DNA of 64,000 nt, taken from NCBI GenBank assembly GCA_963695855.1, contig CAVOHZ010000001.1, positions 22,898-86,897 of the forward strand, given 5' to 3'. The position numbers were made by a program, and so were the translations under genes. Below, piece by piece: positions 12,308-53,084 of this stretch; the stretch's first letter is position 1; every line of letters begins with the position of its first letter. The notes under the pieces are model-generated. The model was not told where the DNA came from, did not search any database, and was given only the letters and a program-made list of their open reading frames with translations. The DNA comes from an uncultured Nitrososphaerales archaeon. Lineage in GTDB: Archaea; Thermoproteota; Nitrososphaeria; Nitrososphaerales; Nitrososphaeraceae.

Positions 12308-12355
12308 AATTCATAACATTATAATTCAAGTTATTAATACGAAATAATGCCCGGA

Positions 12356-12453
12356 AGCCCGGTGGAGGGAAAAATAAATTTCCCGTCGAGTGTAGCGGCC
12401 AAGCATAAAGGCCTTTGGAGCCTTTGACCCCAGTTCGAATCTGGGCCGGGCTA
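12356..12453 (+). tRNA. tRNA-Gln(UUG) with 25-nt non-canonical intron at 10/11 (12366-12390)
   Basis: After intron removal: AGCCCGG-TG-GTGT...GCAT-A-AAGGC-CT TTG GA-GCCTT-TGAC-CCCAG TTCGAAT CTGGG-CCGGGCT-A; A1-U72 as in archaeal tRNA-Gln; bulge-helix motif at the junctions. Confidence 0.9.
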
Positions 12454-12576
12454 ATTTTATGTAGTGCAATTAATGTTTCCGTTCATTTAGAACTTAATAT
12501 CTGAATTACCTAATATTAATAAAACCTAAAAAAATATATTTCTTTCTCATTTTAAAGACACTATTAATAAAAAATA

Positions 12577-53011: not shown

Positions 53012-53084
53012 GGGCTGGTAGTTCAGTGGTAGTAATGTTCGGTTCGCATCCGAAAGGTCGCGGGTTCAAATCCCGCCCAGTCCA
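53012..53084 (+). tRNA. tRNA-Ala(CGC)
   Basis: GGGCTGG/CCAGTCC acceptor with G3:U70, TTCGG-TT CGC AT-CCGAA, GGTTCAAATCC. Confidence 0.95.

What the first reader, a model, noticed from the sequence alone, without database searches (positions are those of the whole stretch)
12348..12453. tRNA-Gln with a position-10/11 intron and a 5' leader that duplicates the acceptor strand
Seen in sequence: a 25-nt intron (12366-12390) with inner hairpin GGGAAA/TTTCCC, central helix CGGT/GTCG and 3-nt bulges GG|A and AG|T. Cutting at those bulges restores a normal cloverleaf. The central helix uses tRNA nt 5-8, so it competes with the acceptor stem. Just upstream, GCCCGG (12349-12354) repeats tRNA nt 2-7 and can pair with the 3' acceptor strand CCGGGC (12446-12451). 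A TATA-like TTATAATT at 12319-12326 would put the start near 12349. Inference: the leader acts as a placeholder strand that frees nt 5-8 for the splicing motif and forces splicing before RNase P cleavage, i.e. a pre-tRNA folding switch. Intron position 10/11 is far from the canonical 37/38 and could be missed by standard tRNA finders.
Basis: partly seen in the sequence, partly recalled or inferred. Interest (0 to 1): 0.7.

Follow-up and report, generated by a model that had tools for sequence, protein, structure and literature searches.

The report
Decoy acceptor strand aids tRNA-Gln splicing
A glutamine tRNA gene of a Nitrososphaera-type archaeon carries a small intron whose cutting signal borrows part of the tRNA's first strand, and a conserved spare copy of that strand just upstream most likely holds the tRNA's 3' end in the meantime.

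Summary
tRNA-Gln(UUG) is 12356-12453, with a 25-nt intron (12366-12390) between nt 10 and 11. Its motif is a relaxed HBh' bulge-helix-bulge whose 4-bp central helix uses acceptor nt 5-8. GCCCGG at 12349-12354 copies nt 2-7.

Among 126 tRNA-Gln genes (UUG and CUG) from 77 genomes in 31 families, 89 carry the 10/11 intron. Of these, 87 have a leader stretch that pairs over at least 6 contiguous bases with the 3' acceptor strand; the other 2 have an interrupted copy. Only 3 of 37 intron-less genes have one.

Nine genomes have one Gln gene with the intron and one without. In all nine, the copy lies within 16 nt upstream of the intron-bearing gene only. Leader changes are C-to-U opposite G. Where acceptor pair 6:67 flips, the leader and the intron strand flip with it.

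Folding models say the copy lowers the cost of forming the splice helix in 83 of 83 genes. They do not predict a switch back to the native stem after splicing.

The transcription start and the order of processing are inferred. I found no published description. Earlier notes of this scan report similar decoy strands in other archaeal tRNA genes.

The parts
12319..12326 (+). TATA-like box of the tRNA promoter (inferred)
   Evidence: The sequence is. Among relatives that have an exact TTATAA within 30 nt upstream, its 3' edge lies 23-24 nt before the first base of the leader copy in 27 of 33 occurrences. In M. jannaschii the spacing from the TATA 3' edge to the start site is 23 +/- 2 nt in 126 of 134 mapped promoters (PMC2699501, passage read). 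No RNA data for this locus.
12349..12354 (+). Leader copy (decoy) of acceptor nt 2-7, GCCCGG. It is complementary to the 3' acceptor strand at 12446-12451 and probably sits at the 5' end of the primary transcript.
   Evidence: It is conserved next to the 10/11 intron in 87 of 89 genes.
12355..12355 (+). Spacer (A) between the decoy and tRNA nt 1, i.e. leader position -1
   Evidence: Spacer length among 83 intron-bearing genes: 1 nt in 37, 3 nt in 27, and 0-8 nt in all but one, which has 38 nt.
12356..12365 (+). 5' exon, tRNA nt 1-10 (AGCCCGG U G G)
12360..12363 (+). 5' strand of the BHB central helix (tRNA nt 5-8, CGGU). It is shared with the acceptor stem.
   Evidence: Pair counts in 83 genes: nt 5 is C-G in 78 and C.A in 5; nt 6 is G-C in 79, C-G in 2 and G.U in 2; nt 7 is G-C in 82 and G.U in 1; nt 8 is U.G in 78 and U-A in 5.
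12364..12366 (+). 5' bulge GG|A, holding the 5' splice site after 12365
   Evidence: Bulge sequences in 83 genes are NGA in 79, AGT in 3 and AGG in 1. The cut after the second bulge base is taken from the published BHB rule. It was recalled, and it is consistent with the motif definition quoted.
12366..12390 (+). Intron, 25 nt, between tRNA nt 10 and 11
   Evidence: Intron length among 83 intron-bearing relatives is 15-59 nt.
12367..12384 (+). Inner hairpin h' (GGGAAA / loop AATAAA / TTTCCC)
   Evidence: At least 3 contiguous pairs adjoin the bulge in 82 of 87 distinct introns, against 6.6% of shuffled inner sequences. There are 42 different arm combinations.
12385..12388 (+). 3' strand of the central helix (GUCG; GCCG in most relatives)
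12389..12391 (+). 3' bulge AG|U, holding the 3' splice site after 12390
   Evidence: In 83 genes the bulge is A-N-U, with N = A in 40, G in 27, T in 10 and C in 6.
12391..12453 (+). 3' exon, tRNA nt 11-73, with anticodon TTG at 12415-12417
12446..12452 (+). 3' acceptor strand CCGGGCU (nt 66-72). It can pair either with nt 1-7 or with the decoy.
12455..12458 (+). T-run just after the discriminator; probable transcription stop (inferred)
   Evidence: That archaeal polymerases terminate at oligo-T is established knowledge, recalled here.

Best explanation
This is the tRNA-Gln(UUG) gene, interrupted between nt 10 and 11 by a protein-spliced intron with a relaxed (HBh') bulge-helix-bulge motif. The 4-bp central helix of that motif pairs tRNA nt 5-8 with the intron's 3' part, so it cannot exist together with the 7-bp acceptor stem.

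The primary transcript most likely begins at or next to G12349. Its first six bases are then a decoy copy of acceptor nt 2-7. The decoy pairs with the 3' acceptor strand (nt 66-71). That leaves the real 5' strand free to hold the central helix, so the (alpha-beta)2-type splicing endonuclease can cut at GG|A and AG|U.

Once the exons are joined the central helix is gone. The real 5' strand, with 7 pairs plus tertiary contacts, can then take back the 3' strand, and RNase P removes the 7-nt leader. By implication, splicing has to come before 5' trimming: a trimmed but unspliced molecule would have lost its helper.

Shown here: the anatomy, the conservation, the co-occurrence, the pairing-preserving substitutions, and the predicted energetic effect. 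Inferred: the transcription start, the actual pairing in the cell, the enzyme's dependence on the decoy, and the order of processing steps.
For: 1. Anatomy. Removing 12366-12390 in silico restores a standard 73-nt tRNA.

2. Co-occurrence. Among 126 Gln tRNA genes in 77 genomes of 31 families, a contiguous leader helix of at least 6 pairs with the 3' strand lies within 45 nt upstream in 87 of 89 intron-bearing genes and 3 of 37 intron-less genes. Within 16 nt the figures are 85 of 89 and 1 of 37.

3. Paralogue contrasts. Nine genomes from 7 families have one Gln gene with the intron and one without. In 9 of 9, the copy lies within 16 nt of the intron-bearing gene only. In eight of them that gene is UUG; in G042 it is CUG.

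4. Background. None of 32 other tRNA genes of this genome has such a helix within 14 nt upstream.

5. Pairing is what is conserved. In 83 genes the leader base opposite C71 is always G. Opposite G70, G69 and G68 it is C or U only (80/3, 48/35 and 82/1), never A or G.

6. Compensatory change. In the two G050 genes the acceptor pair 6:67 is C-G instead of G-C. There the leader copy (AGCCCCG) and the intron strand (GCGG) have changed with it.

7. Motif support. The h' helix covaries across introns.

8. Folding. With the leader, the MFE of the window transcript pairs the leader with the 3' strand; without it, the native stem forms. The central helix has probability of at least 0.8 in 32 of 44 UUG genes with the leader and in 0 of 44 without it or with the copy replaced by A's. 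The median cost of forcing the central helix is 0.06 kcal/mol with the leader and 4.93 without (UUG, n=44). For CUG (n=39) it is 2.74 and 5.09. The saving is positive in 83 of 83 genes.

9. Promoter spacing places the start at the copy.

10. The machinery is present. The genome has an RNase P RNA (162.6 bits) and two splicing-endonuclease paralogues (101.2 and 73.3 bits).

11. Breadth. The same design occurs in records titled Nitrososphaera, Nitrosopumilaceae, Thaumarchaeota, Bathyarchaeota/Bathyarchaeia and Brockarchaeota.
Against: - There are no RNA data. The transcription start, the splice junction and the order of processing are unobserved.
- In this window's own gene the central helix is weak (GUCG, two G-U pairs). 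Its modelled probability is 0.00 even with the leader, and forcing it costs 4.2 kcal/mol (11.9 without the leader).
- In 38 of 39 CUG genes the model gives the central helix a probability below 0.8 even with the leader. The native stem is favoured over the decoy helix by a median of 2.2 kcal/mol.
- After in-silico splicing the decoy helix is still favoured in 45 of 47 UUG genes, by a median of -1.98 kcal/mol. The return to the native stem is therefore not explained by secondary-structure energy alone.
- RNAfold prefers a slipped register (G9 and G10 paired, a 1-nt bulge) over the 3-nt bulge register.
- Three intron-less genes have a leader helix of 6-7 pairs: L095 AGTCTGG with a 1-nt spacer, L092 AGCCCGG with a 21-nt spacer, and L041 GGTTCG with a 26-nt spacer.
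- The acceptor stem is almost invariant, so true double-sided covariation rests on one genome, G050.
- Relatives are not independent, and the phylum-level loci were hand-picked: 20 of more than 150 listed matches.
Confidence: 0.65

Rival explanations
1. The leader copy does pair with the 3' acceptor strand, but its main job is not to present the splice motif. Instead it delays RNase P, or shields or pre-organises the 3' end (a pseudo-acceptor minihelix for 3' trimming or CCA addition, or protection from exonucleases) while a slow-maturing, intron-bearing precursor waits.
For: The same pairing evidence applies. In most CUG genes the decoy does not make the central helix dominant in the model. 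An intron-less gene (L095) keeps a 7-pair copy with two G-U pairs. The decoy sits flush at the predicted 5' end of the transcript, like a mature 5' end.
Against: The copy tracks only the 10/11 intron, whose motif competes with the acceptor stem. Other intron-bearing tRNAs of this genome (D-loop introns in Arg, Glu and Asp) show no copy. Gln genes that keep only other introns lack it too (L051, L104, L100, L101). The saving in central-helix cost is positive in 83 of 83 genes.
Confidence: 0.15
2. The copy is a scar with no function: a short tandem duplication or insertion footprint left when the intron, or the gene's 5' end, was acquired.
For: It is a direct repeat 8 nt apart. Earlier scan notes describe insertion scars that duplicate tRNA-Gln 5' ends in another genome (e1-2754213; unchecked).
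Against: It is kept across 15 families and, by record titles, several classes, while the flanks and the intron interior are free to vary. Its substitutions are only those that keep pairing. It changed together with acceptor pair 6:67 in G050. It is missing beside 34 of 37 intron-less genes.
Confidence: 0.07
3. The GCCCGG block is a DNA-level promoter element (initiator or initially transcribed sequence) needed for transcription of these genes, not an RNA pairing partner.
For: It lies at the constant TATA-to-start distance, 23-24 nt. In the few intron-less genes with a recognisable TATA-like hexamer, the tRNA's own AGCCCGG sits 22-28 nt from it in 10 of 11 cases.
Against: A promoter element has no reason to follow the acceptor's 6:67 flip (G050). 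It has no reason to allow only C-to-U changes opposite G. It has no reason to be present only when the 10/11 intron is present, including within single genomes. The spacer to the tRNA varies from 0 to 8 nt, and up to 38.
Confidence: 0.05
4. The upstream copy is itself an exon or an endonuclease cutting site. Either the mature tRNA uses it as its 5' strand, or the splicing endonuclease rather than RNase P removes the leader.
For: None beyond the sequence identity.
Against: Using the copy as the 5' strand would leave no nt 8-10, and U8 follows the downstream copy only. The first base of the copy varies (A in 50, T in 25, G in 5, C in 3), whereas A1 is fixed. I see no 3-nt bulge / 4-bp helix geometry at the -1/+1 junction (by inspection). 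RNase P RNA is present.
Confidence: 0.03

Closest known systems
Non-canonical BHB introns of archaeal tRNA genes (relaxed HBh' class; Marck and Grosjean 2003, recalled; reviews PMC4090602 and PMC6379350, passages read; Thaumarchaeota intron model of tRNAscan-SE 2.0, PMC8450103, passages read)
   Same: It has a 4-bp central helix made of four exon bases and four intron bases, two 3-nt bulges that hold the cut sites, and an inner helix h'. The host has two endonuclease paralogues, as expected for the broad-specificity (alpha-beta)2 enzyme. The intron itself belongs to this class.
   Different: The reviews I read list positions such as 3/4, 20/21, 22/23 and 25/26 but not 10/11. More important, none of the passages I read mentions a leader copy of the acceptor strand that accompanies an intron.
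[quoted passage not shown] 2009, recalled, not held)
   Same: The precursor must pass through conformations other than the cloverleaf, and structure enforces an order of processing steps.
   Different: There the competing element is another intron. Here it is the acceptor stem, and a dedicated leader strand that is later discarded resolves the conflict.
Leader/trailer pairing in split and permuted tRNAs and in rRNA processing stems (PMC4090602, PMC4033280, PMC3218864; passages read)
   Same: Sequences outside the mature tRNA pair to give the precursor a shape that can be spliced, and are then thrown away.
   Different: In those systems the flanking sequences pair with each other and themselves form the BHB that is cut. 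Here the leader forms a plain helix with a mature-tRNA strand, carries no bulge and is not cut by the endonuclease. It acts as a competitor strand.
Placeholder or alternative-helix devices in RNA folding (attenuator and riboswitch anti-terminators, snoRNA placeholders in ribosome assembly; recalled)
   Same: Two mutually exclusive helices share one strand, and a temporary partner decides which one forms.
   Different: There is no ligand, no ribosome and no trans-acting RNA. The event that releases the switch would be excision of the intron.
Earlier notes of this scan: spare acceptor strands in leaders of Asgard tRNA-His, Ile, Ser and Leu, of an archaeal tRNA-Pro, and of a three-intron tRNA-Gln (AI notes, unchecked)
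   Same: The same design: an intron at or near the acceptor/D junction plus a leader copy of the 5' strand.
   Different: They concern other genomes, other tRNAs and other intron positions (4/5, 7/8, 8/9). I did not re-test them.

Membership tests
Archaeal BHB tRNA intron (hBHBh' / relaxed HBh') | [quoted passage not shown] | tested here: met
   Window: CGGU with GUCG, including two G-U pairs. In 83 genes, 78 to 83 are paired at each of the four positions. The definition is as quoted.
Archaeal BHB tRNA intron (hBHBh' / relaxed HBh') | Two 3-nt bulges whose cut sites, once joined, restore the mature tRNA | tested here: met
   The bulges are GG|A and AG|U. In-silico removal gives a standard 73-nt tRNA-Gln. 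The last intron base varies in relatives while G10 is fixed. Real cleavage was not observed.
Archaeal BHB tRNA intron (hBHBh' / relaxed HBh') | Inner helix h' of at least 2 pairs formed by intron sequence | tested here: met
   GGGAAA/UUUCCC in the window. At least 2 pairs in 86 of 87 distinct introns and at least 3 in 82 of 87.
Archaeal BHB tRNA intron (hBHBh' / relaxed HBh') | Outer helix h of at least 2 pairs formed by exon sequence (needed for the strict hBHBh' form) | tested here: not met
   Only C4-G12 can pair. C3/U13, G2/A14 and A1/G15 cannot. The motif is therefore the relaxed HBh' class, not the strict form.
Archaeal BHB tRNA intron (hBHBh' / relaxed HBh') | Host encodes a splicing endonuclease able to cut relaxed motifs ((alpha-beta)2 or epsilon2 type) | tested here: inconclusive
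   There are two PF01974 matches in open frames of 188 and 132 aa. That fits a two-subunit enzyme. Subunit assembly and the specificity loop were not examined.
tRNA-Gln | Cloverleaf with anticodon UUG and a 7-bp acceptor stem after intron removal | tested here: met
   ARAGORN on the in-silico spliced string calls tRNA-Gln(ttg), 73 nt. Orthologues were found in 55 of 61 related genomes.
Leader/trailer processing stem that builds a BHB (split tRNA, permuted tRNA, rRNA) | The flanking sequences themselves form the bulge-helix-bulge that is cut | tested here: not met
   The leader/3'-strand helix is a plain 6-7 bp duplex without bulges, and the BHB lies elsewhere.
Two-state RNA folding switch | Two mutually exclusive helices share a strand, and the population shifts when a defined event occurs | tested here: inconclusive
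   The exclusive helices are shown, and the leader shifts the model towards the splice helix. Modelled intron removal shifts the balance back by a median of only 1.75 kcal/mol in UUG genes and not at all in CUG genes.

The most novel reading that the evidence does not exclude
Pre-tRNA leaders in several archaeal lineages encode a dedicated decoy acceptor strand. By record titles these are Nitrososphaeria, Bathyarchaeia and Brockarchaeota here. By earlier unchecked notes of this scan they also include Asgard and other archaea. The decoy would be a selected cis-acting RNA chaperone that occupies the tRNA's 3' strand so that an intron whose splice motif overlaps the acceptor stem can be presented to the endonuclease. 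It would impose the order: transcription, decoy pairing, splicing, strand exchange, RNase P. That would explain how introns can persist at positions that seem incompatible with the cloverleaf, and why leader and intron are gained and lost together.
Probability: 0.6. Interest if true: 0.8.

Novelty: new variant of a known kind. Interest (0 to 1): 0.72.

Why it matters
Archaeal tRNA introns at odd positions are usually explained by the splice motif alone. How that motif forms when it has to compete with a stable GC-rich acceptor stem has not been addressed in the papers I could read.

A conserved leader strand that co-evolves with the intron gives a concrete answer that can be tested by mutation. 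It predicts an obligatory processing order, with splicing before 5' trimming. It also ties leader sequence to intron gain and loss.

It has a practical use too. A leader copy of the acceptor strand flags hidden introns near the 5' end, which ARAGORN and the Rfam model misread here.

Tried and rejected
RNA evidence. The run search found only small shares (0.28 at most) held as contigs. The start site and splice junction therefore stay unobserved, and I draw nothing about habitat.

Column-based covariation. In the MAFFT alignment of 41 precursors the leader copy is misaligned wherever spacers differ. I did not run the count of structure pairs on it. I counted pairs by position in a script instead.

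Whole-collection pattern scan. I used it only to name ten archaeal records with the design, not for any count.

The sigma-70 and terminator scan does not apply to an archaeon and was ignored.

Readings considered and dropped:
- The copy as the real 5' exon. This fails because no nt 8-10 would remain.
- Endonuclease removal of the leader. This fails because there is no bulge geometry at -1/+1.
- The leader pairing with the intron's GCCG instead of the 3' strand. Leader positions 2'-4' have no complement there, yet they are constrained to G, C/U and C/U.

Other tRNAs of the genome with partial Rfam hits have D-loop introns and no copy.

Literature. Seven searches and passages from eight papers gave no description of a leader decoy. 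Sugahara 2008 was not looked up. Supplements, such as the intron tables of PMC8450103, were closed. An earlier description cannot be excluded.

Rows left out of the counts:
- L086, L109 and L110: cut by contig ends or nothing parsed.
- L002: a duplicate of L052.
- L044 was kept as intron-less, although only 7 nt of its leader exist.

Full report
THE LOCUS. The window sequence reads, from 12319:
- TTATAATT at 12319-12326;
- 22 bases, 12327-12348;
- GCCCGG at 12349-12354;
- A at 12355;
- AGCCCGGTGG at 12356-12365;
- A GGGAAA AATAAA TTTCCC GTCG AG at 12366-12390;
- TGTAGCGGCC... through the anticodon TTG (12415-12417) and the T arm;
- CCGGGCT at 12446-12452, A at 12453, then ATTTT.

ARAGORN calls tRNA-Gln(ttg) at 12381-12452 with a mismatched acceptor stem. 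Rfam's tRNA model matches only 12389-12445, model positions 9-63, at 35 bits. When 12366-12390 is removed in a script, ARAGORN calls a normal 73-nt tRNA-Gln that maps to 12356-12453. GCCCGG occurs three times on both strands of the 64-kb window, and all three lie in this locus (shuffles average 1.84 for the whole window).

THE INTRON. The motif geometry follows the published definition (quoted in the preprint read). Four exon bases upstream of the 5' bulge pair with four intron bases upstream of the 3' bulge. Here nt 5-8 (CGGU) pair with GUCG. The bulges are G9 G10 | A and A G | U11. The inner helix h' is GGGAAA/UUUCCC. An outer helix h is missing, because only C4-G12 can pair, so this is the relaxed HBh' class.

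Counts across 83 intron-bearing relatives:
- The central helix is paired at each position in 78 to 83 genes.
- The last intron base varies: A in 40, G in 27, T in 10, C in 6. This fixes the 10/11 boundary.

In 82 of 87 distinct introns h' has at least 3 contiguous pairs, against 6.6% of shuffles, in 42 different arm combinations.

The genome has two splicing-endonuclease paralogues and an RNase P RNA.

THE COMPARATIVE TEST. I collected tRNA-Gln genes in four steps:
- A DNA search of 61 related genomes with the UUG locus; 55 matched.
- A DNA search of the same 61 genomes with the second Gln gene of this genome, anticodon CUG; 54 matched.
- Fetches of the flanks.
- A phylum-level search of 251 genomes; 126 matched.

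From the phylum-level search I fetched 20 regions. Ten were all the matches whose alignment began before query position 37. The other ten I picked among the rest, so this part is not a random sample.

Parsing gave 126 genes in 77 genomes of 31 families. Of these, 89 have the 10/11 intron and 37 do not.

| Contiguous leader helix of at least 6 pairs (G-U allowed) with the 3' acceptor strand | Intron-bearing | Intron-less |
|---|---|---|
| within 45 nt upstream | 87 of 89 | 3 of 37 |
| within 16 nt upstream | 85 of 89 | 1 of 37 |

The two intron-bearing misses have an interrupted copy: L026 GCCCG-U-GG and L115 AGCC-GG. In L084 the copy lies 38 nt upstream, behind an insertion. The three intron-less hits are L095 (AGTCTGG, spacer 1), L092 (AGCCCGG, spacer 21) and L041 (GGTTCG, spacer 26).

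Because relatives are not independent, the cleanest comparison is within genomes. Nine genomes from seven families have one Gln gene with the intron and one without. In all nine, the copy lies within 16 nt of the intron-bearing gene only. In eight of them that gene is UUG, and in G042 it is CUG. In this genome, none of 32 other tRNA genes has such a helix within 14 nt upstream.

WHAT THE LEADER PAIRS WITH. By position in 83 genes:
- Opposite C71 the leader base is G in 83.
- Opposite G70 it is C in 80 and U in 3.
- Opposite G69 it is C in 48 and U in 35.
- Opposite G68 it is C in 82 and U in 1.
- Opposite nt 67 it is G (with C67) in 81 and C (with G67) in 2.
- Positions opposite nt 72 and nt 66 are paired in 55 and 50 genes.

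So the only changes tolerated are those that keep a pair with the G-rich 3' strand. In the two genes of G050 the acceptor is AGCCCCG/CGGGGCU. There the leader copy is AGCCCCG and the intron strand is GCGG instead of GCCG. Leader positions 2'-4' have no complement in the intron. The partner is therefore the 3' acceptor strand.

ENERGETICS (ViennaRNA, 37 C, secondary structure only).
- For the window transcript starting at 12349, the MFE pairs the leader with the 3' strand. Starting at 12356, the native acceptor stem forms and the central helix does not.
- Across 44 UUG genes the central helix has a mean pair probability of at least 0.8 in 32 with the leader. It reaches that in none without the leader or with the copy replaced by A's.
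- The median cost of forcing the central helix is 0.06 kcal/mol with the leader and 4.93 without (UUG). For CUG (n=39) it is 2.74 and 5.09. The saving is positive in 83 of 83 genes.

Three results run against a clean switch:
- In the window's own gene the weak GUCG helix has probability 0.00 even with the leader, and forcing it costs 4.2 kcal/mol (11.9 without the leader).
- Only 1 of 39 CUG genes reaches 0.8.
- After in-silico splicing the decoy helix is still favoured in 45 of 47 UUG genes, by a median of -1.98 kcal/mol, and the balance does not move in CUG genes.

The return to the native stem would need tertiary contacts, or capture of the minor native form by RNase P. Neither is modelled.

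TRANSCRIPTION START. No RNA data could be used. Among relatives with an exact TTATAA within 30 nt upstream, its 3' edge lies 23-24 nt before the first base of the copy in 27 of 33 occurrences. The window has 24 nt. In M. jannaschii the spacing from the TATA 3' edge to the start site is 23 +/- 2 nt in 126 of 134 promoters (PMC2699501, passage read). This places the start at about 12349, but it is an inference from another archaeon.

MECHANISM PROPOSED. The decoy is transcribed first and the 3' strand last. The decoy takes the 3' strand, nt 5-8 keep the central helix, and the endonuclease cuts. After ligation the real 5' strand displaces the decoy and RNase P removes the 7-nt leader. The rival explanations section sets out the alternatives: protecting the 3' end or delaying RNase P, a neutral scar, a promoter element, and an alternative exon. 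The pairing-only substitution pattern, the G050 change and the within-genome contrasts argue against the last three.

DISTRIBUTION. Ten public records with the same design are titled Nitrososphaera sp., Nitrososphaeraceae, Nitrososphaerales, Thaumarchaeota, Nitrosopumilaceae, Candidatus Bathyarchaeota/Bathyarchaeia and Candidatus Brockarchaeota. That scan required an exact copy, so it says nothing about co-occurrence.

PRIOR WORK. The intron class is known. Reviews and the tRNAscan-SE 2.0 paper describe non-canonical introns in Thaumarchaeota and a dedicated model for them. In seven full-text searches and passages from eight papers I found no mention of a leader copy of the acceptor strand. 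Earlier notes of this scan report similar spare strands in other archaeal tRNA genes. They are unchecked AI notes and do not count as support, but they suggest the device is general.

VERDICT. The intron is a new member of a known class. The co-evolving decoy strand is a new variant of how such introns are handled, and it awaits RNA-level proof.

Noticed in passing
own genome G000:C10:631144-631339 (-), locus L052: The second Gln gene, tRNA-Gln(CUG), has three introns (10/11, D-loop, 37/38). Its leader copy is AGCTCG, with one G-U pair, followed by a 3-nt spacer. Rfam scores the gene at only 18.9 bits, so standard finders would miss it.
   Followed up: yes
L092 (G054, CUG gene) and L095 (G047, CUG gene): Two intron-less Gln genes still carry a leader copy: AGCCCGG 21 nt upstream in L092 and AGTCTGG 1 nt upstream in L095. 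In L092 the copy can fold back on a GGGCT in its own spacer. They may be relics of recent intron loss, or a sign that the copy has a second role.
   Followed up: partly
L084 (G035, CUG gene): The leader copy (AGTTCG) lies 38 nt from the tRNA instead of 3-6 nt. The flanking bases match those of relatives, so about 33 nt seem to have been inserted into the leader.
   Followed up: partly
L182 and L197 (records titled Bathyarchaeota / Bathyarchaeia): Here the copy is followed by a 12-nt spacer that can itself pair with part of the copy (CCGGG...CUCGG and CCGG...CCGG). This would add a further layer of leader structure.
   Followed up: no
intron-less Gln genes of relatives: Only 11 of 35 intron-less genes tested have a recognisable TATA-like hexamer. 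In 10 of those 11 it ends 22-28 nt before tRNA position +1, so these tRNAs may be transcribed with almost no leader.
   Followed up: no
own genome C10:640864-640922 (+), C3:92655-92729 (+), C8:1-56 (-): Three further tRNA genes (Arg-CCU, Glu-UUC, Asp-GUC) match the Rfam model only partly because of D-loop introns. None has a leader copy of its acceptor strand.
   Followed up: partly
window 12364-12372: The exon-intron junction reads GGA GGG A (GGAGGA in most relatives). RNAfold therefore prefers a slipped register in which G9 and G10 pair with the CC of the inner arm, leaving a 1-nt bulge instead of the 3-nt bulge. The enzyme would have to select the BHB register.
   Followed up: partly
window 53012-53084 (+): An ordinary intron-less tRNA-Ala(CGC) scoring 61.4 bits. 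It served as one of the background genes.
   Followed up: yes
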